A stretch of 64,000 nucleotides of DNA from an uncultured Lachnospiraceae bacterium. GTDB lineage: Bacteria > Bacillota > Clostridia > Lachnospirales > Lachnospiraceae. A program made the translations under genes and the position numbers. The first letter of the stretch is position 1; every line of letters starts with the position of its first letter. Of this stretch, positions 4,184 to 28,683 are shown piece after piece. The notes beneath the pieces are model-generated. The model saw only the letters and a list, made by a program, of their open reading frames with translations, was not told where the DNA came from and searched no databases. The DNA lies in assembly GCA_946616295.1 (NCBI GenBank), contig CAMOIU010000001.1, positions 17,748 through 81,747 on the forward strand, given 5' to 3'.

Positions 4184-5563
4184 ATGAGTAATTCTTCTGC
4201 AGCAAGACAGAGGATCGAAAAACTTCTCGATGCCAACAGCTTCGTGGAGATCGGGGCGGGCGTTCACGCCCGCGCGACCGATTTCAATCCCCGTCCGGCG
4301 GAAGCGTCCTCGGACGGAGTCATCACCGGTTATGGTCTCATCGAAGACAGCCTGGTCTATGTATACAGCCAGGATGCTTCTGTTCTGGGCGGCAGCATCG
4401 GAGAGATGCACGCCCGGAAGATCATCAGGATCTATGATATGGCCATCAAGACCGGTGCTCCGGTGATCGGTCTGATCGACAGTGCCGGCCTGCGTCTGCA
4501 GGAAGGCATGGACGCGCTCGATGCGGTCGCCGGGATCTACGCCAGACAGGCAGCAGCCTCCGGCCTGATCCCCCAGATCAGCGCCGTCTTCGGACGCTGC
4601 GGCGGCGGTCTCGCCGTGGCGGCTTCCATGTGCGATTTCACGTTGATGGAGTCTGGTGCTCATCTGTTCGTGAACGCGCCCAACACACTTGCGGGCAACC
4701 GTGAGGAGAGCAACGATACCTCCTCCGCATCCAGCAGGGCGGCAGCCGGTGTCGCGGACTATACCGGCACGGAAGACGAGGTGCTCGGCAAGATCCGGGA
4801 ACTGGTAGACATTCTTCCCTGCAACTATGAGGACATCGCCGAGGGCGAGAGCGAAGACGATCTGAACCGCGGCTGCACAGGCATCGCGGCAGGGGCTGAC
4901 CCGGCAGCGATCATGAAGGAAGCGGCGGATGACGGCGTATTCGTAGAGATCAGGAGCGCCTTCGCGCCGGATATGACCGCGGGTCTGGCAAGACTCGGCG
5001 GCACGACAGTCGGCGTGATCGGCAACCGCAGCCCCCTGCTCACAGCGGACGGCTGCACCAAGGCCGCTGACCTTGTCAGGTTCTGCGACGCCTTCGGCAT
5101 TCCGGTGATCTCCCTGACCAACGCGACAGGTTTTGCCGCCGCGATCGGTGAGGAGAACCGGGAAGGCAGTGCCGCAGCGGCTCTCACCATGGCACTGGCC
5201 AGGGCTTCCGTACCCAAGATCAATGTGATCACCAAACAGTCCATGGGAAGCGCCTACGCGGTCATGAACGCCAAGGCCACCGGCGCCGACCTGACCTTCG
5301 CCTTCCCCGGCGCTGTGATCGGGATCATGGACGCCGCCATGGCGGCACGCGTGATGGTGCCCGGCGCGGACAAGCTGACCTTTGAGGAGACCAGGCAGCG
5401 CTACGCGGAGACCCAGTGCAGTCTCGCCGGCGCGGCCGCGAGAGGCCTTGTGGACAGCGTCGTGGAGCCCGCGGATCTCCGCAGGTACCTGATCGGCGCT
5501 CTGGAGGTCCTTTATACCAAACGGGTGGATACCCCTGCCGGCAAACACATCAGCCACTGCTAA
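4184..5563 (+). CDS. Divergent acyl-CoA carboxyltransferase (MmdA/PccB-like)
   Basis: ARQRIEKLLDANSFVEIG, DGVITGYG, YSQDASVLGGSIGE, DSAGLRLQEG, VRFCDAFGIPV; several canonical motifs are altered. Confidence 0.8.
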   Translation: MSNSSAARQRIEKLLDANSFVEIGAGVHARATDFNPRPAEASSDGVITGYGLIEDSLVYVYSQDASVLGGSIGEMHARKIIRIYDMAIKTGAPVIGLIDSAGLRLQEGMDALDAVAGIYARQAAASGLIPQISAVFGRCGGGLAVAASMCDFTLMESGAHLFVNAPNTLAGNREESNDTSSASSRAAAGVADYTGTEDEVLGKIRELVDILPCNYEDIAEGESEDDLNRGCTGIAAGADPAAIMKEAADDGVFVEIRSAFAPDMTAGLARLGGTTVGVIGNRSPLLTADGCTKAADLVRFCDAFGIPVISLTNATGFAAAIGEENREGSAAAALTMALARASVPKINVITKQSMGSAYAVMNAKATGADLTFAFPGAVIGIMDAAMAARVMVPGADKLTFEETRQRYAETQCSLAGAAARGLVDSVVEPADLRRYLIGALEVLYTKRVDTPAGKHISHC

Positions 5564-5578
5564 GGGGGTGAAGAGCAT

Positions 5579-5962
5579 ATGATGGAGTTAATGAAGGAGG
5601 CGGGACTGAATACCATCCTCGGAATGGGTATGACCTTCCTGGTACTGATCCTGCTCTCAGGCATTATTACCATGTTCGGAAGGGCCATCACCGCCTTCCA
5701 GAACAAAGCCGCATCCGACCGGAAGAAAGAATTGAAAGAGTCTGCCCCGCAGGAAGTCAGGGAAGTGCCGGCTCCGGCCGCCCCTGCTCCCGCAGGGGAC
5801 GGTGACCTGATGGCGGTTCTCGCCGCGGCTGTGGCCGCCTTTGAGAGCGACACGATGTCGCCGGAGATCGCCGCCGTCATCGCCGCCGCCGTGGCCGCCT
5901 ATGAAGGCAGCAGCGGCTATGTGGTCAGGAAGATCAGGAAGTCCAGGAAACACGTGGCCTGA
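5579..5962 (+). CDS. OadG/GcdD-type (gamma/delta) membrane-anchor subunit of a Na+-translocating decarboxylase
   Basis: One N-terminal TM helix (LGMGMTFLVLILL), Ala/Pro linker, AVIAAAVAAYE and a basic C-terminus; position in the cluster. Confidence 0.8.
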   Translation: MMELMKEAGLNTILGMGMTFLVLILLSGIITMFGRAITAFQNKAASDRKKELKESAPQEVREVPAPAAPAPAGDGDLMAVLAAAVAAFESDTMSPEIAAVIAAAVAAYEGSSGYVVRKIRKSRKHVA

Positions 5963-6021
5963 TATCCGCCCGTCTGTTATTTGAAAAGCCTGAGAAGGCT
6001 GTCTGTTTAAGGAGGAAAGAA

Positions 6022-16781: not shown

Positions 16782-18209
16782 ATGGCAATGTTATCTGCAA
16801 CAACAGAAGGCGGACGTGTGGAAGGTGTGCGAGCTAATTTCCCCTTCTACACGATCTTCAAAGGCATTCCTTTCATGGCGCCGCCCGTGGGAGAGAACCG
16901 CTGGAAAGAACCACAGCCTGTTCAGCCCTGGGAAGGAGTTCTGCGGTGTGACCGTTTCGCACCGACCTGTATGCAGCCTCCGTATGCCTCCGAGGGGGGC
17001 CTCATCGCCAATGAATTCATGGGCGTACAGATGCCCATGGACGAAGACTGCATGTACCTGAATATCTGGACGCCTGCTGAATCTGAAGAGGAGAAGCTTC
17101 CGGTCGCCGTCTATTTTCACGGAGGAGCTTATACTACCGGACTCAGTTACCTGAACTGCTTCGACGGCGAGGGCTTCAACAAGCGGGGGATCATCTTCGT
17201 GACCATCCCTTACAGGCTGAATATCTTTGGCTTCCTGGCGCATCCGCTGCTGACGGAGGAATCCGAACATAAGGCATCGGGCAATTACGCCTACCTGGAT
17301 CTGATCGCCGGTCTCAAATGGGTCAGGAGAAACATTCGCAGTTTCGGCGGAGATCCTGAGAATGTTACGATCTTCGGACAGTCTGCCGGCGCGGGCTGTG
17401 TGCGGGCAATGTGCACATCGCCGCTCGCTGACGGTCTGTTCCGCAGGGCGATCATTCAGTCAATAGGTGTTCTGGACCACAAACCTTTCACGGTATGGGG
17501 CAAGGACCTGAGCACTGCCGAGCAGCTGGGCAGAGATTTCTGGAACTACTGCGGATATACATCCGTCGAAGAGGCCAGGCAGGCTTCCGCGCAGGAACTC
17601 CTGGATCGGTTCATGGCGTTCGGCAGGGAGAAAAGATACGAAACGGACGACGAGCAGTATGCGGGCGGATACCTGCGCTTCGGCCCTGTGGAGCGCGACG
17701 GCTACTTCTATCCGGAGATCTCTGCGGATGCCATTCGGAGGGGCCATCACAAAGAGATCACCTATGTGATAGGGTCGACGGCTAATGAATATCCCTACAT
17801 GACACCCTGCAATATTGCTTTTGCGGAGAATGAGATCTGTCTGGGCAGGAAACCTGCCTATGTCTATTATTTCCAGTATGTTCCGCCTGGTGCGGAGGAG
17901 GAAGGCGCACACCATTCCGTGGAGCACCATTATGTCTTTCAGACACTGTTTCGCTCGCAGAGACCTTATGGAGGGTTTGACTTTGAGCTCTCCAATGAGA
18001 TGGCGGACAGGTGGGCTGCATTCTTTAAGACCGGCGACCCGAATTGTCCGGAGAAGCCTTATGCACAGTGGCGACCGTATTCCAAAGAGGACAGAGAGGT
18101 CCTCGGCATCACAAGAAAAGGCTGCCATATGATGTTCTGCCCGATGTCGCCGGAAAGAGAAAAGCGGATCCGGGAAGAACTGGAAAGGGCGGTAAATGAA
18201 GTAAAATGA
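16782..18209 (+). CDS. Type-B carboxylesterase
   Basis: FKGIPF, EDCMYLNIWTP, FHGGAY, YRLNIFGFL, GGDPENVTIFGQSAG (catalytic Ser), GSTANE, AHHSVE; no signal peptide. Confidence 0.9.
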   Translation: MAMLSATTEGGRVEGVRANFPFYTIFKGIPFMAPPVGENRWKEPQPVQPWEGVLRCDRFAPTCMQPPYASEGGLIANEFMGVQMPMDEDCMYLNIWTPAESEEEKLPVAVYFHGGAYTTGLSYLNCFDGEGFNKRGIIFVTIPYRLNIFGFLAHPLLTEESEHKASGNYAYLDLIAGLKWVRRNIRSFGGDPENVTIFGQSAGAGCVRAMCTSPLADGLFRRAIIQSIGVLDHKPFTVWGKDLSTAEQLGRDFWNYCGYTSVEEARQASAQELLDRFMAFGREKRYETDDEQYAGGYLRFGPVERDGYFYPEISADAIRRGHHKEITYVIGSTANEYPYMTPCNIAFAENEICLGRKPAYVYYFQYVPPGAEEEGAHHSVEHHYVFQTLFRSQRPYGGFDFELSNEMADRWAAFFKTGDPNCPEKPYAQWRPYSKEDREVLGITRKGCHMMFCPMSPEREKRIREELERAVNEVK

Positions 18210-19660: not shown

Positions 19661-22621
19661 TTGTTCAACGAAACTATTTCAACTCAGCTTGGATATGACG
19701 ACGGTTGGACTTTTGATCAGTATTCGGCAATTGTACAAGCACTTCAGGCCTACGGCTGCGAATACCTTAAAGGCAGAGAGGAATATACTCTTCTCAAAGA
19801 AGTGGTGTCACCCAATATTACCCGAGTTATAAATTCGGGTAATAGAGAGAATGCGGAAAAGTCAGTATTTACAAGGGCTGAAGGCAGTGGTGTCATTTTA
19901 CCTTTATGCAGGGCAATACCTATAAATGACACCGATATCTCCTCGTATAAGAAACCTTTTCTTGCCCCTTTGGATATCCAGAAGGCTGGAAGTATCGCGG
20001 ACATGATCCCGTCTTTTAAGGTTATACAGTCCTGCAACATGAGCCTCAATATAGGCTTTGATACCGAGTTCCAGGATTACCGTGATGGCCGTGATGGTTC
20101 TGGAACAAACAGACGGGTTCTTTCACTGCAGATGTCAATTGCTATCGGCGAAGTTCTGATCAGATATTTCTTCCTGGTGGATCCAAGATATCAGATTGTC
20201 ACCTCTGAAGGTGGACAGATACCGCTGAAATGCTGTTTGGCAGATATTCTTGCCGACTTGAAGAGGTGCTACTTTGAGGGATTCCCTCTGGTATTGAAAA
20301 GAAACATCCGATACAAAGAAAAATGCTGGAAGGGTCATGAGCCTTATAAAGTTGTCGATTTCTCTGCCATGAAGGATTTTGTGATACCGGTTACTATTAT
20401 CTGCCATACTGGCAAGGCTGATATTTCTGTCTTCCGACGTTCCAAATATGATATTGATATTATCCGCAAACTGGGCGAGATCCAGGGCGGATGGATGACG
20501 ACTGAATATGTTTACTTCACTGCTGCCAATGACATACACCGTAATTACTACTGGCTCGTCAACCTGACCATCAGGGATACTCTTGGGCTGACACCTGCAG
20601 ATAACAAGTCCTTGAAAGCTCTTGGAGATGTTCTTCAGCGGCCTAAGATCGATCTTCCGGGGGAGACCATTAAGCATATGTCCTCTTTCGCCGTTCTTAA
20701 CCCGGCTGAGTATTATGCGTATGCGATGAACGATGCCGATATTGTAGTTTCGTTCTGCTCAGAACTGTTTCTTTGCAATCATGCTGTTCCCATGACGCTG
20801 TCCAGTGCGGCAGCCGCTTCCATGTATGCAAATATCAAAAAGTATTTTGGCGTATCTAAGAAGACAGACTATGACAGGATATACAGGGGGTTGGAGATGC
20901 TGGATGAAGGTGTTATTCCTTCTAAAGAGGAATGTATGAAGTTTTTAAAGGCCACTCGCTATGTGCCGATTCGCGATAACCCCGATGCAAAGCTGGTGAC
21001 GGAGTATTTCGAGGAAGCGTATACAGGGGGGTTTAACGCTTCTTTCTATATTGGTTGGATTACAGAACAGACCACAGACTTCGATCTCCAGAACGCATAT
21101 CCTACAGCTATGGCAACTATCATTGACATCGATTGGAATGAGCATGTGCGGGATTTGCCGAGAGACTATCTTCGGCTGCAGGATCTGGTAAGCCCGCTTG
21201 TCCCTGCTGTTGCCGTAGGAGATTTCGACTTTCCTGAAGATTGCTATTGCCCCAATATCCCTGTACCTGTAAAAGGTGGTATGAAGATTTATCCACGCCA
21301 CGGCAGAAATGTCTACATGTCAGGTCCGGACATGTATCTTGCGCTAAAACTTGGAGCTCGAATAAAAATCTTCCGCGGTTTTACCTGCACGATGCTTGAG
21401 ACGAAAGAGGGCTCTCCTTCTAAATGTCTTGCGTATGCCGTTACAAGCCTCGTTCAGGACAGAATGCTGGCGAAGAGGATTTATAAGGATAAACCCCTGG
21501 TAGAGAAGAGCCTGAAAACCATGGTAAATAGCTGCTACGGAAAAACTGCGCAGAACGTATCCCCTAAGACCAGATATAACGCTCAGAAGATGGGGCGTGT
21601 AGATGCAGAGCCTTCTGCTGTAACCAGTCCCTACCATGCCACCTATACTACTGCCCTTGTGCGCTGTATGCTGATCGGTTGTATAAATGAACTTCATGAA
21701 ATGGGATACCATGTTTATTCCGTTACAACAGATGGGTTTATCACAGACGCTCCGACAGCGGTAGTGAGGAATCTGAACGCTTACGGTTTTACCAGGATTT
21801 TCCAGAGCGGTCGTTATACGCTAAATCAGACCCGCGACGACTGCGAAGCTAATCAGGTGTGGGAACCCAAACATTTTAACAACGCCTTTTTGAACATCAC
21901 GACGCGTGGGAATGTAGCTGTAAATGATGAAGGAGTCCTCGCACACAATTCCTACGTTACTGGTGAGGTTAAGGACAGCCGCGCAGACAGAGATGCATAT
22001 ATTATTGCCGTTCTTTCTCGTGAAGGGAAACTGAAGTGCCCTACTAAAATCTGGACAGAGTTTTCAGAAATAGTAGAAAGGCGTCATGACTTCGGCGTAT
22101 CCGAAACTATCCGCGAGTTATCGATGGATTTCGATTATAAAAGGTGTCCTGTACTCGAAACAGCAAAAGACACTCCTGTACACTACGAAAGTGTGGACGG
22201 TCAGTATTCCGTGGACACTGTCATAGCTGAATTTGACACGCGCCCGTTTGTTGATGCCGAGGAATTTCTAAATTACAGGAATACGTTGCGGAACGAAAAC
22301 TGTGTAAAAGTCACGGCAGATCTTGAGCGTGTGGAGGTCAAATCTACTGTTCAGACCAAGGGATACATCGGCAAGAACCTGCCGAGGAAGATTATTCTCT
22401 CCATTCTTATGGGCTATCGTGCGGGCTTATATAAGATCCCCGCTCTTGATGGCCTTAAGCAGGCAGAGGTTGTGGATACCGTTAATTCATGGGAGATCGC
22501 GGAAATCAGCCTCAGTGACTGGAAAAACTGCTCGAGAACAAAGAGACAGGAGAATATGCTGCCTCGCGAAGTCATACAGGAAACTCTTGATATGATTTTG
22601 AAACTTGGAGAAGACCGTTAA
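19661..22621 (+). CDS. Family-B DNA polymerase, primer-independent (piPolB)-like; start uncertain (TTG 19661)
   Basis: ExoI IGFDTE, ExoII HTGKAD, ExoIII YAMNDA, YTGGFN, PolA DFDLQNAYPT, PolB KTMVNSCYGKTAQ, PolC SVTTDGF (TTD instead of DTD), EPKH, ITTRG. Confidence 0.85.
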   Translation: MFNETISTQLGYDDGWTFDQYSAIVQALQAYGCEYLKGREEYTLLKEVVSPNITRVINSGNRENAEKSVFTRAEGSGVILPLCRAIPINDTDISSYKKPFLAPLDIQKAGSIADMIPSFKVIQSCNMSLNIGFDTEFQDYRDGRDGSGTNRRVLSLQMSIAIGEVLIRYFFLVDPRYQIVTSEGGQIPLKCCLADILADLKRCYFEGFPLVLKRNIRYKEKCWKGHEPYKVVDFSAMKDFVIPVTIICHTGKADISVFRRSKYDIDIIRKLGEIQGGWMTTEYVYFTAANDIHRNYYWLVNLTIRDTLGLTPADNKSLKALGDVLQRPKIDLPGETIKHMSSFAVLNPAEYYAYAMNDADIVVSFCSELFLCNHAVPMTLSSAAAASMYANIKKYFGVSKKTDYDRIYRGLEMLDEGVIPSKEECMKFLKATRYVPIRDNPDAKLVTEYFEEAYTGGFNASFYIGWITEQTTDFDLQNAYPTAMATIIDIDWNEHVRDLPRDYLRLQDLVSPLVPAVAVGDFDFPEDCYCPNIPVPVKGGMKIYPRHGRNVYMSGPDMYLALKLGARIKIFRGFTCTMLETKEGSPSKCLAYAVTSLVQDRMLAKRIYKDKPLVEKSLKTMVNSCYGKTAQNVSPKTRYNAQKMGRVDAEPSAVTSPYHATYTTALVRCMLIGCINELHEMGYHVYSVTTDGFITDAPTAVVRNLNAYGFTRIFQSGRYTLNQTRDDCEANQVWEPKHFNNAFLNITTRGNVAVNDEGVLAHNSYVTGEVKDSRADRDAYIIAVLSREGKLKCPTKIWTEFSEIVERRHDFGVSETIRELSMDFDYKRCPVLETAKDTPVHYESVDGQYSVDTVIAEFDTRPFVDAEEFLNYRNTLRNENCVKVTADLERVEVKSTVQTKGYIGKNLPRKIILSILMGYRAGLYKIPALDGLKQAEVVDTVNSWEIAEISLSDWKNCSRTKRQENMLPREVIQETLDMILKLGEDR

Positions 22622-22654
22622 TTATTCTCTGCAGAGTTCCAGAAGCCAATGTGA

Positions 22655-22719
22655 ATCGGTTTACCCGGTTAAAGGGGGAGGGGACATAGTCCCCGAACCT
22701 CTTGAACGGGTAAACCGAT
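22655..22719. repeat. 65-bp nested inverted repeat downstream of the polymerase
   Basis: ATCGGTTTACCCG/CGGGTAAACCGAT outer stem and GGGGAC/GTCCCC inner stem. Confidence 0.8.
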
Positions 22720-22789
22720 ATCCTTATATATAGGCTGAATATGTTTTTTTATAAACTGGGAAAGATTCGACCATATAAAAGGTAGTCAT

Positions 22790-23250
22790 ACAAAAGTATG
22801 TAGAAATAGATGCTTCAGAACCGGGATCGACCGGGGAAGTCCTGAAAAGCGCCGCAGTAACCTTTGTGAATTGGCATAGTAGGGGCTCAGGCAAGGCCGT
22901 TAGTAACCCTGTGAACGCAGGCCAAGCAACCGAAGTGACGGACAAATCGAGAACCTTCCGAGACCGTGGGAAGTGAAAATGAAGCGGGCGTAACTCGTAA
23001 ACCTTGTGATGGTGACTGTACTGATCGTAAAACTGTACATGACTTTGGATGTTCAAGATGAACGGACTCGTAGACTGCAGGAATGCGACGTCGGCTGTAC
23101 AACGACGGGGGACCGGCGACAGACCGGAACGAAGAACCTGGACACATAACCAGTAAAAAAGTGTAGAAGCGGATGCTTCAAACCGACACACATAAGTCGT
23201 TAAAAAGTGTTCATTGCCGAATATCGAGATCCTTCGGGACTGGTAGGAAG
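22790..23250 (+). ncRNA. Candidate structured non-coding RNA or regulatory region (unassigned)
   Basis: No convincing ORF; several local hairpins, a C(UUCG)G tetraloop, recurring GTAA[A/C]C..TGTGA motifs and an imperfect flanking direct repeat. Confidence 0.35.
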
Positions 23251-23320
23251 CGACTCTTGTTTTAACCGGGGAAGACCATATTTTGAAAAAACGGATTGTA
23301 CTTCAAAAGGAGAAGGTGCC

Positions 23321-24361
23321 GTGGGCAGAAAAAATAAAAGATACAGCAAAGATTTGCACCAGCAGGCCTATGAAAGGCTGACCGGGATGCAGGCCTTTGG
23401 GCAGTCCAAGAAAGAAGCGGCTGCAAACGGGACGGAGAAGGACAAGATTTTCTCGTACAGCACATATCAGACCTACTGGAAGCATACAAAATACTTCGTG
23501 AAATGGATCCAGGAGAAATATCCGGACTGCACGACGTTGAAGGCTGCGCGCCGTCATGTGAACGAGTGGCTTCAGAGCCGTGTCAATCAGGTCGACGAAA
23601 AGGGACAGCATCTTTCCGCTTGGACGATACAGACAGAGGCTGCCGCGCTGAACAAAGTGTATCAGATCGACAAGTCAGATCCGGATCGGTTTCAGCCTCC
23701 GAGGCGGAACAGGTCAGAGATCAAGAGGAGCCGTGTGACGACGGCGAGGGATGCGCATTTCAGCATAACGAACAATGACGAGCTGATCAAGTTTTGTAAG
23801 GGCACAGGCTGCCGCAGGGGCGTCCTGGAAAAGCTGGAAGGCCGGGATCTGTGGACCAGGAAGTCGATGGAAGACAGGGTTTCTTCTTTAGAGGCACGGG
23901 CAGATCTGTCGCCGAAAGAGGCCAAGCATTTGGCGACGCTGCGGGATGCTCTGGCGGTGTTTCCGGATCACGATTACTTTATTCATCATCGGAAAGATAA
24001 AAACGGCCGGTACCGCTTCGCGCCGGTTATTGGTCCGGATAAGGATAAGATCATCGAACGTATGCGGACCACGGGGGCAACAGAAAAGGTCTGGCAGCAT
24101 GTGAACAGTAACGCGGATATTCACGGTTACCGCGCCGAGTATGCAACAGCCATGTATAAGCATTACGCCAGAAAGATCGAAGATATCCCGTATGACAGGG
24201 TAAATAAAGGTACTGGGAGACTGTACCAGAGTGACGTATATATTTGCAGAAAAGACGAGGCAGGAAGAAGACTGGATCGTGCCGCGATGAGAAAAGCCAG
24301 CAAAGCACTCGGACACAATAGGATTTCAATTATAGCAGACCATTATATCCGGGGGTTGTGA
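23321..24361 (+). CDS. Atypical tyrosine recombinase-family protein
   Basis: GTG start after AAGGAGAAGG; SAM-like N-terminus (TYQTYWKHTKYFVKW...SAWTIQTEAAAL); catalytic-like GTGCRR, HHRKDKNG, HGYR, ALGH...HY. Confidence 0.75.
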   Translation: MGRKNKRYSKDLHQQAYERLTGMQAFGQSKKEAAANGTEKDKIFSYSTYQTYWKHTKYFVKWIQEKYPDCTTLKAARRHVNEWLQSRVNQVDEKGQHLSAWTIQTEAAALNKVYQIDKSDPDRFQPPRRNRSEIKRSRVTTARDAHFSITNNDELIKFCKGTGCRRGVLEKLEGRDLWTRKSMEDRVSSLEARADLSPKEAKHLATLRDALAVFPDHDYFIHHRKDKNGRYRFAPVIGPDKDKIIERMRTTGATEKVWQHVNSNADIHGYRAEYATAMYKHYARKIEDIPYDRVNKGTGRLYQSDVYICRKDEAGRRLDRAAMRKASKALGHNRISIIADHYIRGL

Positions 24362-24374
24362 AAAAGGAGAGCAC

Positions 24375-25157
24375 ATGGCAAGATTTTACAAAAAAGACGA
24401 GCTCGGCCGTTTAGTTGAAACAGACAGCGGGGCGTTCGATTCAGACGTGGAAGTAGTCAGCATGACAGGATGTGAATTCCGCGATATGCAGGCATCGATA
24501 CAAAGTGAGAAGAGGAGAGCTGATAAGGCAGAAGATCTAAACAGGAACCTGTTGCGGATCATGAAGGAGAGATCCAATGCCGAAAGAGGAATACGGCCCA
24601 AAAAGGAAAAGGACGGCTATATTGTATTGGAGTCTCGCCAGTGGTATGAGAGGTATCAGGTTGCTGTGTGGCATCCGGAGGTGGATCCTGACATGTTTCG
24701 AAAAACAGAGGAGGGGAGAAGTGAAGCATTAAGGAAAAAGCTGGTACGCTTTGAACCGCATACCGCAGTAACTTGGAAAACAATTATACAGACACCATAT
24801 GATGTTTCATTACCGAAAGAGAGCGTAGAAGATCTCATAGAAGAAGAAATAGTAAAAGTATTAGCAGAAATGGGATGTCTGAAAAGCAACAGCAGGAAAC
24901 TGAACGGGACATTCCGCTCTTTTGGGATTGGCCCGGACGGACATCACATTAACGGACGGTACCGCTGGGTATACCGAGCAAATTACCGGTCTGGCTATTG
25001 GGAGGTTGAATGCTATACTCTTAAAGCCTTAGACGTACCCATCCACCGCCAGTGTGAAAGAACGAACCGGACAAAAAAGAAAAAACAGAATAAAAAAAAG
25101 GATTCTCGCGAAGATCTGTTTTCCCTGTTTGGGGATTTTGATGACACTGTTCAATAA
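24375..25157 (+). CDS. Hypothetical protein (260 aa; coiled-coil segment, basic/acidic tail)
   Basis: AAGGAG RBS; 13 bp after the recombinase stop; no motif recognised. Confidence 0.75.
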   Translation: MARFYKKDELGRLVETDSGAFDSDVEVVSMTGCEFRDMQASIQSEKRRADKAEDLNRNLLRIMKERSNAERGIRPKKEKDGYIVLESRQWYERYQVAVWHPEVDPDMFRKTEEGRSEALRKKLVRFEPHTAVTWKTIIQTPYDVSLPKESVEDLIEEEIVKVLAEMGCLKSNSRKLNGTFRSFGIGPDGHHINGRYRWVYRANYRSGYWEVECYTLKALDVPIHRQCERTNRTKKKKQNKKKDSREDLFSLFGDFDDTVQ

Positions 25158-25252
25158 AACAGTTGTTTTCGTGAACACAAAAGAGCTTGCCGGAATGTGG
25201 GCTGTAAAGTATGATTTGTGTTAAAGAAAATAGGACAGCCTTTTCGTGAACA
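25148..25252. promoter_or_regulatory. Candidate res site of the serine resolvase
   Basis: TGTTCA-AT-AAAACA-GT-TGTTTT-CG-TGAACA (25148-25177) and a second inverted pair TGTTAAAGAAAA/TTTTCGTGAACA (25219-25252). Confidence 0.6.
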
Positions 25253-25262
25253 GGAGGGAAGA

Positions 25263-25868
25263 ATGTCTGTCATATATGGATACGCCAGATGCTCGACTGA
25301 CGAGAGCCGGCAGGACATCGACCGCCAGAAGCGGGAGCTGTTCGCGATGGGCGTGAAGGAAGACAAGCATATTTATTGGGAATATGAGTCTGGGACGAAA
25401 GAGAACCGGGCGGAACTTGCGAAGTTGCTGGACGTGATCCGGGAAGGTGATTCGATTGCGGCAACGGAAGTTTCCAGGCTGACGAGATCGACAAAGCAGC
25501 TGTGTGAGATTCTGCAGATGGTTCAGGACAAGAAGATATGCCTTCTGATAGGCTCTTTTTCCGTGGATTGCAGGGCAGAGACCAGTGACCCGATGACAAA
25601 GGGGATGCTGATGATGTGGGGAGTATTCTCGGAGATGGAGCGCGATATCATCAGCCAGCGGGTTAAGTCCGGCATGAAGAACGCCGCAGCGAAGGGCAAG
25701 CGTATCGGGAGACCGAAGACGACCGCTGATACTCTTCCGGAAAAGTTTTGGAAGTATTACAAGTTGTATAAAGACGATGAAATTACAGTCGCTGAGTGTG
25801 CCAGACTGATGGATTGTTCGCGGACGACGGTTTATAAGTACCTGGACATGGCAGAGGCATGTAAATAA
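25263..25868 (+). CDS. Small serine recombinase (resolvase/invertase) with C-terminal HTH
   Basis: YGYARCST, Q...RQ, YESGT...RAEL, EVSRLTRS, SEMERDIISQR...G, GRPK. Confidence 0.93.
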   Translation: MSVIYGYARCSTDESRQDIDRQKRELFAMGVKEDKHIYWEYESGTKENRAELAKLLDVIREGDSIAATEVSRLTRSTKQLCEILQMVQDKKICLLIGSFSVDCRAETSDPMTKGMLMMWGVFSEMERDIISQRVKSGMKNAAAKGKRIGRPKTTADTLPEKFWKYYKLYKDDEITVAECARLMDCSRTTVYKYLDMAEACK

Positions 25869-25929
25869 AATGCGGCGGCATTTTCCGCTGTGACCGTTGG
25901 GAACACGTAAAAGCCAGGAGGAAAGTAAT

Positions 25930-26997
25930 ATGTCAAAAGAAGTATTTAGGATGGGGGAGCTTTTCTGCGGGCCCGGGGGAATAGCATGTGGTGCGCACAG
26001 GGCCGTAAGCGATGATGGTGAAAAATCGATTATTCACGCTTGGGCTAATGACTTCGATCCGGATACCTGTGAAACCTATGCAAAGAACATCTGCGGAGGC
26101 GATGGCTCTTCCGTGTATTGTCAGGATGTGAGGGAGCTTAATATTCCCGCACTTGGACCAATAGATGCCTTCTCGTACGGCTTTCCGTGCAACAGCTTCT
26201 CCAATGTCGGAGAACATCAGGGGCTGGAGAATGATAAGTTCGGTCAGCTATACACATACGGCGTTGAAGTGCTGAAATATTACCAGCCCAAATGGTTCCT
26301 TGCGGAAAATGTATCAGGAATTAGGTCGGCTGGTGACGGAAGCCATTTCCAGATCATTCTGGATGATCTTGCCGGTGCCGGGTACACACTGGTAACGAAC
26401 ATGTACAAGTTTGAAGAGTACGGAGTACCTCAGACCCGTCACAGGATCATCATTGTCGGCATCCGGAACGATCTCGATGCCCAAGGTATCAAGTTCAAGG
26501 TCCCTTCACCGGAACCGTATAAGAACTGCGATGTAACGGCCGGTACTGCCCTTTCCGGCATTCCGGCGGATGCCCCGAACCACGAGGTGCGGAAACTGCA
26601 GGACAAGGTGAGGCTCCGTCTTTCCTACATAAAGCCCGGGCAGAACATCTGGCAGGCAGAGAACCTTCCGCCAGAGCTGATGATCAAAACTCGGACCAAA
26701 ATCAGCCAGATCTACAGGAAGCTTGACCCGGCAAAACCGTCGTACACAGTCACGGCCGCAGGCGGCGGCGGTACATTCATGTACCATTGGTCGGAAGAAC
26801 AGCGCGAACTCACGAACCGGGAACGCGCAAGGATACAGACTTTCCCTGACGATTTCGAGTTCGTCGGAAAGTATTCATCGGTCAGAAAACAGATTGGGAT
26901 GGCGGTCCCGCCGAAAGGAGCGGAAATCATCTTCCGTGCCATACTGAACACCTTTGCCGGGATCGACTACCCTTATGTGGAGCCGAGTATGTCGTAA
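25930..26997 (+). CDS. C5-cytosine DNA methyltransferase, M.BbvI-like
   Basis: ELFCGPGG, GFPCN, AENV, YGVPQTRHRIIIVG, TNRERARIQTFPD, QIGMAVPP; the overall layout matches M.BbvI as recalled. Confidence 0.92.
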   Translation: MSKEVFRMGELFCGPGGIACGAHRAVSDDGEKSIIHAWANDFDPDTCETYAKNICGGDGSSVYCQDVRELNIPALGPIDAFSYGFPCNSFSNVGEHQGLENDKFGQLYTYGVEVLKYYQPKWFLAENVSGIRSAGDGSHFQIILDDLAGAGYTLVTNMYKFEEYGVPQTRHRIIIVGIRNDLDAQGIKFKVPSPEPYKNCDVTAGTALSGIPADAPNHEVRKLQDKVRLRLSYIKPGQNIWQAENLPPELMIKTRTKISQIYRKLDPAKPSYTVTAAGGGGTFMYHWSEEQRELTNRERARIQTFPDDFEFVGKYSSVRKQIGMAVPPKGAEIIFRAILNTFAGIDYPYVEPSMS

Positions 26998-27018
26998 AAC
27001 GTATTGGAGGGAGAAGCC

Positions 27019-28683
27019 ATGCTGAACTACTGGTGGGTGACACGCCCTAAGAGGAAACTGGACAGTGTTCCGGAAGTGCTCGCGGCATTTGCCGACATAT
27101 CGCTCAACCAGGAATGGACAGGCCAGCGCGGCACGCAAATGGCCTATGAGGAAGCACTCGAAAAGGCTGGTCTGAAACGTGTCGGTGCAAGGCGTGACCA
27201 GTCCGGGTCCGGCGGACGTACATACGGGGCATGGCTTGTTTCTCTCGGCCTTATTTTCAACCAGGCCGAAACCGGCAACATTAAACTTACACTTGCCGGA
27301 GAAGCTATCATGAACGGCGATTCTCCCGTGGATGTTTTGAAGAACCAGGTGCTGAAGTACCAGTTCCCGTCAGCTTTCTCTCTCGGCAGGGGCGTACAGG
27401 TACACAGCCGGTTTAAGATCCGGCCGTTCCGCTTCCTTTTGAAACTGCTTTCGGACGACAGACTGGAACGGTACCTAACACAGGACGAAATCGCCAAGGT
27501 CGCCGCGGTGGACGCGGAGAACGAGACATCGGCCGTCTATGAAATGGTCGTACAGAAGATCCTGCGCTTCCGTGAAGTGGGCGACAGGTGCCTTGATCCG
27601 GATTTCTTTGGGTTGTATAAGCCCGGAAAAGGCGACGTCAACCCGGATCATCCGTTCAGCCATCTCCAGGACATGGCCAACACGATGATCAACTGGCTGG
27701 AATATACACAGCTGGCAAAGCGGAACGACGACAGGCAGCTTGTTATCCTGGAAGAGAAACAGGCAGAGGTCGGCGCAATCCTTGCTACGGTGCCGCCGTT
27801 CATTGACCGGCCGGAAAACCACGAGTTCTTCCAGCGGAAATACGGCTTGGACCCAAAGCACCGTAAAGATACAAGGAACCTTGAAAAGACCAAGACAGTC
27901 ACGGCCCGCATTATTGCCGAGCAGAAAATCCGTTCTGCCTATATCCGCGCGTCTCTGGCGAAACCGATTACCGGTATCACACCGGACCTGATCGCGGATA
28001 TCACCGAGGAAACGGGCATTACACCAGACCTGGTTGAAGAGATTCTGCGCAAGGCATATCCTCACGGATCGATCGGGGCTTTCATGGCGTCCTATTTCGA
28101 AATGGCGTTCAAGGGCCGCGAGGAATGCACTGAATTTGAGGTGGCGACAACAGAGCTGTTTAAGGACGTATTCGGATATGACGCAAGGCATCTCGGACAG
28201 ACAGGAAGCAAGTCCGCTCCTGATGTGCTGCTCCTTTCCGATTCTGACGGATATCAGGCTGTTATCGATAATAAGGCGTACAGCAAATACAGCATCAGCG
28301 GCGATCACCATAACCGGATGGTACATAATTACCTGGAGAGAATTAACACATACAGCCCCAGCCCGTACCCGATCGGCTTTTTCTCCTATATCGCTGGCGG
28401 GTTTGGCAAGACCATCGACAAGCAGATACAAGACGAGGTCAGGGAAAGCGGCGTTCACGGGTCAGGCATCACGGTCTCCAACTTCATAAAGATGATTGAG
28501 AATCAGCAGAACGGTGTCAGACAGTACAGCCATAAAAACTTGAGGAATATTTTCGGTCTTGACAGGCAGGTGATGTTGCAGGACGTCTATGAGGGCGGGC
28601 ACAACACCGTACAGTATGACTTCCGGCAACGGGAACTCGACATGGTGGCTGAACAGTCCGTCCAGTACGGGAGGAAAGACTAA
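27019..28683 (+). CDS. Type IIS restriction endonuclease with a FokI-like cleavage domain
   Basis: C-terminal FEVATTELFKDVFGYDARHLG...PDV...IDNKAYSKY parallels the FokI PD...DxKAY domain; sits between the MTase and vsr. Confidence 0.8.
   Translation: MLNYWWVTRPKRKLDSVPEVLAAFADISLNQEWTGQRGTQMAYEEALEKAGLKRVGARRDQSGSGGRTYGAWLVSLGLIFNQAETGNIKLTLAGEAIMNGDSPVDVLKNQVLKYQFPSAFSLGRGVQVHSRFKIRPFRFLLKLLSDDRLERYLTQDEIAKVAAVDAENETSAVYEMVVQKILRFREVGDRCLDPDFFGLYKPGKGDVNPDHPFSHLQDMANTMINWLEYTQLAKRNDDRQLVILEEKQAEVGAILATVPPFIDRPENHEFFQRKYGLDPKHRKDTRNLEKTKTVTARIIAEQKIRSAYIRASLAKPITGITPDLIADITEETGITPDLVEEILRKAYPHGSIGAFMASYFEMAFKGREECTEFEVATTELFKDVFGYDARHLGQTGSKSAPDVLLLSDSDGYQAVIDNKAYSKYSISGDHHNRMVHNYLERINTYSPSPYPIGFFSYIAGGFGKTIDKQIQDEVRESGVHGSGITVSNFIKMIENQQNGVRQYSHKNLRNIFGLDRQVMLQDVYEGGHNTVQYDFRQRELDMVAEQSVQYGRKD

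What the first reader, a model, noticed from the sequence alone, without database searches (positions are those of the whole stretch)
22720..23320. About 600 bp of hairpin-rich non-coding DNA in front of the atypical recombinase: candidate structured RNA partner
Seen: in an otherwise tightly packed element this stretch has no credible ORF. It has local stems (TTGGC 22871/GCCAA 22921 enclosing AGGG/CCCT; CCTG-TGAACG-CAGG; CTTCC/GGAAG near 22945-22962; GTCG/CGAC near 23090-23106) and a C(UUCG)G tetraloop near 23230. It also has recurring GTAA[A/C]C(T)TGTGA motifs (22857, 22903, 22997, plus a variant at 23027) and an imperfect ~24-bp direct repeat (TGTAGAA...GATGCTTCA.AACCG at about 22800 and 23162). 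Inference: this could be a large structured ncRNA or leader linked to the downstream recombinase, i.e. an RNA-recombinase module, or an iteron-bearing origin for piPolB.
Basis: partly seen in the sequence, partly recalled or inferred. Interest (0 to 1): 0.78.

Follow-up and report, generated by a model that had tools for sequence, protein, structure and literature searches.

The report
Conserved structured leader RNA before plasmid recombinase
The 600-700 "empty" bases hold a promoter region and the template of a roughly 500-base folded RNA, absent from Rfam, that sits in front of this recombinase gene in more than 150 gut-bacterial plasmids and islands and that in most relatives starts with a self-cutting pistol ribozyme; what the RNA does has not been shown.

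Summary
Folding energy of the window alone is no better than chance (z -1.8 to +1.4). Comparison with relatives gives the evidence.

The gap 22622-23320 holds:
- a 65-bp inverted repeat made of two AACGG-N5-CCGTT sites;
- a degenerate copy of a sigma-70 promoter that is textbook in relatives;
- a leader of about 530 nt on the + strand.

The leader contains two AGUA/GAA (sarcin-ricin-like) hairpins. It also has a 149-nt block (23124-23272) with two H-type pseudoknots (ACACAUAA loop, A-rich tail, GUGU), a long hairpin with a UUCG tetraloop, and UUUAAC.

Covariation is strong: 94.5% of cells pair versus 28-43% in slid controls, 21 pairs show double changes, and 0 of 500 shuffles reach the observed values. 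Wobble pairs favour the + strand, and indels are not in threes.

The block precedes the 346-aa tyrosine recombinase and its 260-aa partner in about 150 loci. A weaker version precedes recombinases only about 30% identical on Streptococcus suis plasmids.

Most relatives have a Pistol ribozyme (62-68 bits) at the 5' end of the leader. The window does not. Rfam 15 has no family for the rest.

piPolB is not a regular neighbour, so the origin idea fails. The RNA's function is inferred, not shown. The closest analogues are STAXI and the SGI1 sgm-sRNA.

The parts
22655..22719 (.). 65-bp inverted repeat. The conserved arms CGGTTTACCCG (22657-22667) and CGGGTAAACCG (22707-22717) each belong to an AACGG-N5-CCGTT-type palindrome, and the centre is variable. 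It lies upstream of the promoter, so it is a DNA-level site: a candidate operator, recombination site or oriT.
   Evidence: the arms are conserved in nearly all loci, 330-540 nt upstream of block c and about 25 nt before the -35 box. An analogous repeat, TGTTTATACGTT...AACGTATAAACA, occurs in S. suis plasmids. Its function was not tested.
22749..22777 (+). Degenerate counterpart (TTATAA-17 nt-CATATA) of the promoter that in relatives reads cTTGACa-17 nt-TGnTATAAT. The predicted transcript start is near 22784-22790.
   Evidence: Promoters of relatives are aligned. The window copy falls below the threshold of the consensus scan, so read-through from the polymerase gene is possible.
22785..22850 (+). 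5' domain of the window-type leader (AUAGAUGCUUCAGAACCGGGAUCGACCGGGGAAGUCCUGAAAAGC). It occupies the place where most relatives have a Pistol ribozyme.
   Evidence: Shared with L004 and L008, with a compensatory change CCGG/CCGG to CUGG/CCAG. No Rfam match at E up to 10.
22851..22875 (+). Hairpin A with an AGUA...GAA (sarcin-ricin / loop-E-like) motif: GCCGC-AGUA-AC-CUUU-GU-GAA-UUGGC.
   Evidence: Near-invariant 24-mer in relatives. The inner pair is A:U in 23 and G:C in 7 of 30 sequences.
22895..22923 (+). Hairpin B: helix GGCCG / CGC-AGGCC enclosing a second AGUA-AC-CCU-GU-GAA motif (22902-22915).
   Evidence: The enclosing helix has 6 of 7 pairs with changes on both sides. 88.3% of cells pair, against 25-36% in slid controls.
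22930..23123 (+). Variable middle domain of local hairpins: CCG-AAGUGA-CGG 22930-42; CUUCC/GGAAG 22955-72; GUUCA-AGA-UGAAC 23051-63; CGUCG/CGACG 23089-23107.
   Evidence: Conserved or compensated in the window-type relatives L085, L004, L008, L024 and L128. There are too few sequences for statistics.
23124..23272 (+). Block c, in order:
- pseudoknot 1: stem 23138-41/23150-53, loop ACACAUAA 23142-49, A6 tail, GUGU 23161-64;
- hairpin GAAGC/GCUUC 23166-79;
- pseudoknot 2: stem 23184-87/23196-99, loop 23188-95, GUGU 23207-10;
- a long hairpin 23216-23251 with a GA-rich internal loop and UUCG tetraloop;
- hairpin GAC/GUU 23252-61;
- UUUAAC 23261-66.
   Evidence: Covariance model R1 scores 123.8 bits, E 3.5e-23, in the window and matches once or more in all 100 sources searched. 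The pseudoknot helix changes between lineages.
23273..23320 (+). Unstructured spacer with the ribosome-binding site AAAGGAGAAGG (23307-23317). No terminator lies between the RNA and the gene.
   Evidence: In relatives the spacer is 21-177 nt, AT-rich and variable.
23321..24361 (+). 346-aa two-domain tyrosine recombinase. Invariant residues include R165/R166, K227, H268, R271, H332 and Y342.
   Evidence: Alignment A1. AF2 model pLDDT 87. The best fold matches are integron integrase 2a3v, XerA and Cre over the full length.
24375..25157 (+). 260-aa partner protein with a coiled-coil N-terminal part, a conserved basic motif RERANAxRGxxPKKxHxGY and a beta-rich C-terminal domain. No known family or fold.
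   Evidence: A homologue is present in 150 of the 162 sequences. Alignment A3. pLDDT 85, no PDB fold match at E below 0.001. No Pfam, NCBIfam or PHROG hit.

Best explanation
The gap is the control region and long structured 5' leader of the recombinase operon. It is not an origin and not junk.

Shown:
- It holds a conserved inverted repeat (DNA level) and a promoter that is textbook sigma-70 in relatives and degenerate here.
- It encodes a + strand RNA of about 530 nt with covarying helices, running without a terminator into the ribosome-binding site of the 346-aa tyrosine recombinase gene, which is followed by the 260-aa gene.
- The RNA belongs to a family absent from Rfam 15. The family is found only with this gene pair, on small plasmids and islands of gut Clostridia and, in weaker form, on Streptococcus suis plasmids.
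- In most members the leader starts with a Pistol self-cleaving ribozyme. The window's copy has a different 5' domain.

Inferred mechanism:
- The twin pseudoknots with identical loops, and the two AGUA/GAA hairpins, are binding sites for an element-encoded protein. Candidates are the recombinase's basic N-terminus or the basic motif of the 260-aa protein.
- Protein binding to its own leader would set the stability and translation of the operon mRNA and keep recombinase levels low.
- In relatives, pistol cleavage would remove the 5' triphosphate end and leave a 5'-OH on the functional RNA.
- In the window, transcription would start at the weak promoter or read through from the polymerase gene.
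For: - Non-coding blocks are conserved upstream of proteins only 55-65% identical.
- The promoter cTTGACa-17-TGnTATAAT points at the gene in nearly all loci.
- Block c: 35 pairs, 94.5% of cells paired versus 28-43% when slid, 21 pairs with changes on both sides, 0 of 500 shuffles as high.
- Block b: 88.3% paired versus 25-36% when slid, 52 doubly changed cells.
- R1 matches once or more in all 100 sources searched, always upstream of the gene and on its strand. In 60 related genomes it occurs in only one, G005, again followed by a 347-aa ORF. Of three viral contigs that matched a motif pattern, R1 hit one, and that one also carries the gene pair.
- G.U outnumbers A.C by 173 to 69, or 59 to 15 without three dominated pairs.
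- RNA-typical features: UUCG and GGAA tetraloops in variable hairpins, AGUA/GAA motifs, an A-rich third loop of H-type pseudoknots.
- The pseudoknot helix is ACAC:GUGU in Clostridia, AGCA:UGCU and CGCA:UGCG in S. suis, and CCCA:UGGG in another S. suis plasmid. Loop changes C to U and A to G keep the pairing by wobble.
- Pistol RF02679 scores 62-68 bits (gathering score 34.5) on the same strand in relatives. A pistol-like 5' part occurs in 96 of 162 sequences, at a near-constant 122-137 nt before hairpin A in the 69 distinct leaders measured.
- No terminator lies between the RNA and the gene.
Against:
- Single-sequence folding energy is not better than shuffles.
- No conserved expression platform (terminator or RBS-sequestering helix) connects block c to the start codon. 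The spacer is variable and AT-rich in relatives and could hold a second promoter. The RNA might then be a separate ncRNA acting in trans.
- The window's own promoter is degenerate.
- Protein binding to the pseudoknots is pure inference.
- Two pairs tolerate C.A.
Confidence: 0.55

Rival explanations
1. The RNA is a trans-acting cofactor of a DNA transaction carried out by the recombinase-family protein. It would be a Firmicute counterpart of the SGI1 mobilization module, in which a processed small RNA (sgm-sRNA), encoded between oriT and the tyrosine-recombinase-like relaxase gene mpsA, is essential for transfer. The inverted repeat would be the oriT or recombination site. The pistol ribozyme would mature the RNA's 5' end.
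For: - The order of parts is the same: inverted repeat, RNA, tyrosine-recombinase-family gene, second gene (PMC9299015, PMC6414798).
- In SGI1 the functional RNA is the 3' part of a 650-700 nt primary transcript trimmed at its 5' side. Here a ribozyme would trim the 5' side.
- All 18 PLSDB plasmids with this protein family are typed non-mobilizable, that is, without a known relaxase.
- The window's element already has a separate integrase for integration.
- The RNA is kept over large distances while the spacer to the gene is free to vary.
Against: - The described tyrosine-recombinase-like relaxases (MpsA, MobK, TcpM) lack the core-binding domain (PMC8152469). This protein aligns over its full length with two-domain recombinases and has weak SAM-like domain hits.
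- The 260-aa protein does not resemble MpsB.
- No sequence similarity to sgm-sRNA was tested or is known.
- There is no evidence of conjugative transfer.
Confidence: 0.27
2. The conserved hairpins act as single-stranded DNA, not RNA: a single-strand origin, an oriT-linked structure, or attC-like folded sites for the recombinase.
For: - Hairpin covariation alone cannot tell RNA from ssDNA.
- Distant relatives sit on rolling-circle plasmids.
- The best fold match of the recombinase is the integron integrase, which acts on folded ssDNA.
- The S. suis inverted-repeat loop holds a TAGCG motif like the ssoA CS-6 (the comparison is from memory).
Against: - A canonical double-strand promoter is placed to transcribe exactly this strand.
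- A Pistol ribozyme, an RNA-only entity, lies inside the same unit.
- UUCG and GNRA tetraloops, AGUA/GAA motifs and A-rich pseudoknot loops are RNA features. The same argument was used for STAXI (PMC2864571).
- The module is also present in a chromosomal island.
Confidence: 0.08
3. Iteron-bearing replication origin for the neighbouring piPolB, or an RNA-primed (ColE1-like) origin.
For: - The gap lies directly after the polymerase gene.
- Direct repeats exist.
- The F. plautii plasmid has no annotated Rep.
Against: - piPolB is absent from 160 of the 161 other loci.
- The annotated small plasmids inspected that carry distant family members have their own Rep genes.
- The Clostridial plasmids have another candidate replicase and a second non-coding gap.
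- The 'repeats' are paired RNA elements whose stems differ between copies.
Confidence: 0.04
4. Decayed gene or unrecognised small ORF, with chance hairpins.
For: - A 155-aa antisense ORF exists.
- Single-sequence folding energies are at chance level.
Against: - The ORF is not conserved.
- Indels are not in threes.
- Covariation is far above controls.
Confidence: 0.02

Closest known systems
STAXI RNA motif (Rfam RF01728; Weinberg et al. 2010, PMC2864571)
   Same: - Both have tandem pseudoknot units with UUCG tetraloops.
- Both lie just behind promoters near integrase and other DNA-handling genes of mobile elements.
- The function of both is unknown, and both are argued to be RNA rather than ssDNA on the same grounds.
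   Different: - No sequence or structure match: Rfam cmscan gives no STAXI hit at E up to 10.
- STAXI is found in Enterobacterales, this RNA in Firmicutes.
- Here there are two units with an ACACAUAA loop and A6-GUGU tail, embedded in a much larger RNA with AGUA/GAA hairpins and, in relatives, a pistol ribozyme.
SGI1 mobilization module: oriT, sgm-sRNA, MpsA, MpsB (PMC9299015, PMC6414798)
   Same: - A structured, processed RNA is encoded between an inverted-repeat DNA site and a tyrosine-recombinase-family gene that is followed by a second small gene.
- In SGI1 the RNA is essential in trans for transfer.
   Different: - MpsA lacks the core-binding domain; this protein has one.
- MpsB (98 aa, core-binding-domain-like) is unlike the 260-aa protein.
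- In SGI1 the 5' end is matured by consecutive cleavage steps, probably by cellular endoribonucleases, not by a ribozyme.
- No homology is shown, and a role in transfer is untested here.
Pistol self-cleaving ribozyme (Rfam RF02679; Harris et al. 2015, PMC4604425)
   Same: It is part of the same leader in most relatives, on the same strand and at a fixed distance before hairpin A. It is known from Firmicutes and phage-related contexts, with no known biological role.
   Different: The window's own leader has no pistol. The conserved RNA downstream of the ribozyme is not part of the Pistol family.
preQ1-I type riboswitch aptamers (small H-type pseudoknots with an A-rich tail; comparison from memory)
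   Same: Same architecture: a short stem, a loop whose 5' part pairs with a 3' segment after a run of A, sometimes in tandem.
   Different: - No Rfam match.
- Loop and tail sequences co-vary between lineages instead of being fixed as a ligand pocket would be.
- No metabolic gene context and no expression platform.

Membership tests
Pistol ribozyme (RF02679) | Match to the covariance model at or above the gathering score of 34.5 bits (P1, P2, P3 and pseudoknot) | tested here: not met
   The window 22300-23700 has no match at E up to 10 and the whole window has none at gathering score. Relatives L082, L051, L057, L065 and L010 score 62-68 bits.
STAXI (RF01728) | Match to the Rfam model of the tandem pseudoknot unit | tested here: not met
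   No hit in the window or in 22 related loci.
Any described RNA family (Rfam 15, 4227 models) | cmscan match for blocks b or c | tested here: not met
   only Pistol (in relatives) and a tRNA elsewhere in the window.
Structured RNA (general) | Helices kept by compensatory changes, above controls | tested here: met
   Block c; block b. The alignments were made by MAFFT, not fitted to the structure.
Structured RNA (general) | Transcription of the modelled strand | not testable with these tools
Indirect support only: the promoter, the wobble bias and the pistol on the same strand.
Tyrosine recombinase (Cre/Xer/IntI type) | Catalytic R-K-H-R-H/W-Y set and a two-domain fold | tested here: met
   Invariant R165/166, K227, H268, R271, H332 and Y342 in 35 sequences. 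Full-length fold matches to 2a3v, 5hxy and Cre, probability up to 0.99. Pfam hits are below cut-off.
Tyrosine-recombinase-like relaxases (MpsA, MobK, TcpM) | Catalytic domain only, without core-binding and arm-binding domains (PMC8152469) | tested here: not met
   The model has an N-terminal helical domain, and the fold alignments span 360-400 columns of two-domain recombinases.
Tyrosine-recombinase-like relaxases (MpsA, MobK, TcpM) | Nicking at an adjacent oriT and a requirement for conjugative transfer | not testable with these tools
   Needs mating and nicking assays.
SGI1-type RNA-dependent mobilization | The RNA is required in trans for transfer | not testable with these tools
   Only the order of parts matches.
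Iteron origin for piPolB | Co-occurrence of the non-coding region with the polymerase | tested here: not met
   tblastn finds piPolB in the window and, distantly, in L005, out of 162 sequences.
Type III toxin-antitoxin RNA (ToxI-like) | Tandem pseudoknot repeats followed by an endoribonuclease toxin gene | tested here: not met
   The downstream genes are a tyrosine recombinase and a protein with no match in Pfam, NCBIfam, PHROGs or PDB. PADLOC was not searched. There are only two units, with different stems, inside a larger RNA.

The most novel reading that the evidence does not exclude
The leader is the obligatory RNA subunit of a ribonucleoprotein formed with the tyrosine recombinase and/or the 260-aa protein. 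It would be needed in trans for the DNA reaction at the adjacent inverted repeat (resolution, cointegration or conjugative nicking), making it a Firmicute analogue of SGI1's sgm-sRNA. On this reading, the natural job of the pistol ribozyme in these plasmids is to mature that RNA, and the window's pistol-less 5' domain may be an undescribed processing element.
Probability: 0.25. Interest if true: 0.85.

Novelty: new variant of a known kind. Interest (0 to 1): 0.66.

Why it matters
Large structured RNAs tied to one protein family are rare, and several have turned out to be working parts of the machinery.

Here an RNA family of about 500 nt, absent from Rfam, accompanies a widespread but uncharacterised family of plasmid-borne tyrosine recombinases in gut Firmicutes.

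It also gives the pistol ribozyme, whose biological role the ribozyme papers read here do not state, a fixed and testable position: about 60 nt ahead of a conserved RNA domain. That makes two questions experimentally approachable in cultured strains: what pistol ribozymes are for, and whether tyrosine-recombinase-family enzymes outside SGI1 use dedicated RNAs.

If the RNA is only a long autoregulatory leader, the finding is a solid new RNA motif of moderate interest.

Tried and rejected
- Rfam at gathering and permissive thresholds on the window and 22 loci found only Pistol in relatives.
- Single-sequence folding gave no signal.
- DNA similarity to phage records: none. To plasmids: one weak hit, which led to the F. 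plautii plasmid.
- The 260-aa protein has no Pfam, NCBIfam or PHROG match, no PDB sequence match and no fold match.
- The 471-aa plasmid protein has only a faint LigD-polymerase match, E 0.44.
- Literature searches linking pistol with recombinases or Lachnospiraceae plasmids found nothing relevant. Weinberg 2015 (PMC4509812) is not held.
- Complementarity between the RNA 3' end (UUUAACCGGG) and the inverted repeat (I4) is not conserved in relatives, so I rejected it as a guide-like pairing.
- The repeat 22792-22817 / 23155-23180 does not co-vary among relatives (L004 lacks the second copy). I treat it as unexplained, not as a functional pair.
- A riboswitch reading was rejected: there is no expression platform, and the loops vary between lineages.
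- A type III antitoxin reading was rejected: there is no toxin nuclease.
- The pattern scan of viral contigs gave two chance hits and one true member.
Full report
**What is in the window.** The gap 22622-23320 lies between a 986-aa ORF with weak family-B polymerase matches (19661-22621) and a 346-aa ORF starting at GTG 23321 behind a good ribosome-binding site. Both sit in a low-GC island, about 47% against about 60% for the flanks. Earlier notes describe this island as a pipolin-like element in a tRNA gene, with its own integrase at the far end.

On the window's sequence alone they are not remarkable:
- Folding energies are within the spread of dinucleotide shuffles for the whole gap on either strand (z -1.78 and -1.69).
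- The same holds for its two best-conserved parts (z -0.54 and +1.02).
- Rfam 15 finds nothing in the gap, even at E up to 10.

**The protein next door.** The 346-aa protein is a real tyrosine recombinase.
- In an alignment of 35 relatives the box I arginine (GTGxRR), a lysine in a GKGGR hairpin, HxxR and LGH...Y are invariant.
- The AlphaFold model (pLDDT 87) aligns over its full length with integron integrase, XerA and Cre, including an N-terminal helical domain.
- Pfam only gives sub-threshold hits.
- It is followed 13 nt later by a 260-aa protein that matches no known family or fold, although the model is confident (pLDDT 85).

**Relatives.** The recombinase has many relatives at 55-87% identity. 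Scans returned 98 in species-representative genomes and at least 469 in metagenomes, of which I kept 80 loci from each.
- Most lie on contigs of 8-12 kb from gut Lachnospiraceae and Oscillospiraceae.
- A complete 21.8-kb Flavonifractor plautii plasmid carries two copies.
- The 260-aa gene follows in 150 of the 162 sequences compared. No other gene is constant.
- The polymerase is found only in the window and, distantly and elsewhere in the locus, in L005.

So the gap belongs with the recombinase, not with piPolB.

**Conservation of the non-coding DNA.** Although the proteins are only about 60% identical, blocks of the gap are conserved at 75-100% upstream of nearly every relative. There are four kinds of element.

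1. *The inverted repeat.* The repeat at 22655-22719 has conserved arms and a variable centre. Each arm is part of an AACGG-N5-CCGTT palindrome.

2. *A promoter.* About 25 nt further on, nearly all relatives have a textbook promoter, cTTGACa-17 nt-TGnTATAAT, pointing at the recombinase gene. The window's counterpart, TTATAA-17-CATATA at 22749-22777, is degenerate and below the threshold of the consensus scan.

3. *Block b.* This is two hairpins that each carry AGUA on the 5' side and GAA on the 3' side, around a 2-bp stem and a small loop (window 22851-22875 and 22895-22923).
   - This is the arrangement of the sarcin-ricin or loop-E motif (established knowledge).
   - The inner pair switches A:U to G:C in 7 of 30 sequences.
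   - The helix around the second hairpin has 6 of 7 pairs with changes on both sides.
   - Overall 88.3% of cells pair, against 25-36% when partners are slid.

4. *Block c (window 23124-23272).* It consists of a 4-bp hairpin with loop ACACAUAA followed by six or seven A and GUGU; a variable hairpin; a second hairpin with the same loop, tail and GUGU; a long hairpin with a GA-rich internal loop and a variable tip (UUCG in the window); a 3-bp hairpin; and UUUAAC.

**Is block c a structure?**
- On a MAFFT alignment of 42 sequences, RNAalifold predicts 20 pairs, 16 of them with compensatory changes.
- For my 35-pair model, including both pseudoknots, 94.5% of cells pair against 28-43% for slid partners. 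21 pairs have changes on both sides, and none of 500 column shuffles reaches any of the five measures.
- A covariance model built from it (R1) matches once or more in each of the 100 sources searched (100 matches). The match always lies upstream of the recombinase gene and on its strand, and the window scores 123.8 bits.
- In 60 related genomes it occurs in only one, G005, and there again it is followed by a 347-aa ORF.
- Of three viral contigs that matched a motif pattern, R1 hit one (L175), and that one also carries the gene pair.

**RNA or DNA, and which strand?**
- G.U-type pairs on the + strand outnumber A.C-type pairs (which would be G.U on the other strand) by 173 to 69. Leaving out three positions that dominate the counts, the ratio is 59 to 15.
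- Optional inserted hairpins carry UUCG and GGAA loops.
- The loop ACAC can pair with GUGU after an A-rich linker, the classic H-type arrangement. Within Clostridia these letters hardly vary, and the variants seen (C to U, A to G) keep pairing by wobble.
- The decisive variation comes from distant relatives (next section).
- Lengths of the block are spread evenly over the three classes modulo 3. The window's 155-aa antisense ORF is not conserved.

Together with the promoter, these points favour a + strand RNA.

**Distant relatives.** Recombinases only 26-35% identical are found on very small plasmids of Streptococcus suis, S. infantis, Caldicellulosiruptor and an uncultured rat-gut bacterium, and on a 40-kb Clostridium estertheticum plasmid. 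All are typed non-mobilizable. The annotated small ones I inspected have their own Rep genes, and those I inspected all have about 580-840 nt of non-coding DNA in front of the recombinase gene.

In two S. suis groups the last 180 nt of that gap again show two hairpin, A-run, tail units. There the loop and tail read AGCA/UGCU and CGCA/UGCG. A third group has CCCA/UGGG. The R1 score there is weak (11.8 bits, E 0.17), so this rests on inspection. The matched changes of loop and tail are what a pseudoknot predicts. An inverted repeat with similar arms (TGTTTATACGTT / AACGTATAAACA) and a promoter-like site precede it.

**The pistol ribozyme.** Rfam finds a Pistol self-cleaving ribozyme on the + strand of the leader in the relatives tested, at 62-68 bits against a gathering score of 34.5.
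- A simple pattern for its 5' part is present in 96 of the 162 sequences.
- In the 69 distinct leaders measured it starts 122-137 nt before the first AGUA/GAA hairpin, 65-174 nt after the inverted repeat.
- Pistol cuts near its own 3' end (PMC8782182). It would therefore release the downstream RNA with a 5'-OH and only a few ribozyme nucleotides attached.
- The window, its closest relatives (L004, L085) and some other lineages lack it and have no other known ribozyme.
- In the window only about 70 nt of RNA precede hairpin A. They form a different small domain shared with L004 and L008.

The papers I could read describe pistol as phage-associated and give no biological role (PMC4604425, PMC6154101). 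I found no paper linking it to this recombinase or these plasmids.

**What it most likely does.**

Shown: the gap encodes a conserved, structured + strand RNA that is inherited with the recombinase and 260-aa gene pair. In the window the RNA runs into the gene without a terminator.

Inferred: it is a long leader that is bound by an element-encoded protein at its twin identical loops and AGUA/GAA hairpins, and so sets the level of the recombinase operon. In relatives the ribozyme defines its 5' end.

I hold this at about 0.55. No conserved expression platform links block c to the start codon, and the spacer is variable (21-177 nt).

The main rival (about 0.27) is that the RNA works in trans as a cofactor. 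The mobilization module of Salmonella genomic island 1 has the same order of parts: oriT with inverted repeats, a processed RNA whose functional domain lies between oriT and mpsA, a tyrosine-recombinase-family protein, and a second protein. That RNA is essential for transfer (PMC9299015, PMC6414798). Against membership, the described recombinase-like relaxases lack the core-binding domain (PMC8152469), while this protein has one.

A single-stranded-DNA role (about 0.08) is hard to square with the promoter, the ribozyme and the RNA-type loops. The origin idea (about 0.04) fails on co-occurrence.

**Comparison with known RNAs.** The nearest described RNA motif in form and context is STAXI: tandem pseudoknots with UUCG loops near integrase and other DNA-handling genes, function unknown (PMC2864571). 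Earlier notes of this scan pointed me to it. There is no model match, the hosts differ, and this RNA is several times larger. I therefore file it as a new variant of a known kind: a new family of mobile-element leader RNAs.

**Limits.**
- The calibration of R1 is rough.
- The middle domain of the window-type leader rests on eight sequences.
- The pseudoknot covariation in Streptococcus rests on inspection.

Noticed in passing
L003 (NZ_CP095095.1) 1-21828: The Flavonifractor plautii VE303-08 plasmid looks like a cointegrate of two related units of about 11 kb. Each unit has its own inverted repeat, promoter, pistol, leader, recombinase and 258-aa gene, in direct orientation. This fits recombinase-mediated fusion of plasmids.
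   Followed up: partly
L003 3775-5190 (-) and 15973-17379 (-); gaps 5471-5963 and 17379-17868: A 471-aa protein found in 68 loci has only a faint sequence match to the LigD polymerase (primase-polymerase) domain (E 0.44), so it may be the plasmids' replicase. A second gap of about 490 nt with no annotated gene lies next to it and could be the real origin.
   Followed up: partly
L014, L016, L018, L027, L033, L049, L055 (contig ends): Many assembled contigs begin inside block c. This is expected if several related plasmids in one sample share this conserved stretch and break the assembly there.
   Followed up: no
L166 (C. bescii pATHE02) 385-470 and 515-585: Six GTTAGC/GTTAGT repeats are followed by a TTGACA-17-TATGAT promoter and an inverted repeat AAAGTAAACCGC/GCGGGTTACTTT that resembles the window's repeat arms. 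Here the repeat is downstream of the promoter.
   Followed up: no
L167 (S. suis NZ_KX785326.1) 1170-1235: The loop of the inverted repeat holds GCGGTAGCGAGC, which is reminiscent of the CS-6 motif of ssoA single-strand origins (comparison from memory).
   Followed up: no
L075 403-1142, L081 1088-1800, L074 3533-3587: Two loci carry about 620 nt extra between block c and the recombinase gene. One locus has a pistol that lacks its P1 hairpin (38.5 bits).
   Followed up: no
window 22749-22777: The window's leader promoter is degenerate (TTATAA-17-CATATA) where relatives have a near-consensus extended -10 promoter. The integrated copy may be expressed only weakly or by read-through from the polymerase gene.
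   Followed up: partly
window 25218-28683: Directly after the module lie a serine resolvase, a C5 cytosine methyltransferase and a FokI/AlwI-like restriction enzyme. This cargo is not shared with the plasmid relatives.
   Followed up: no
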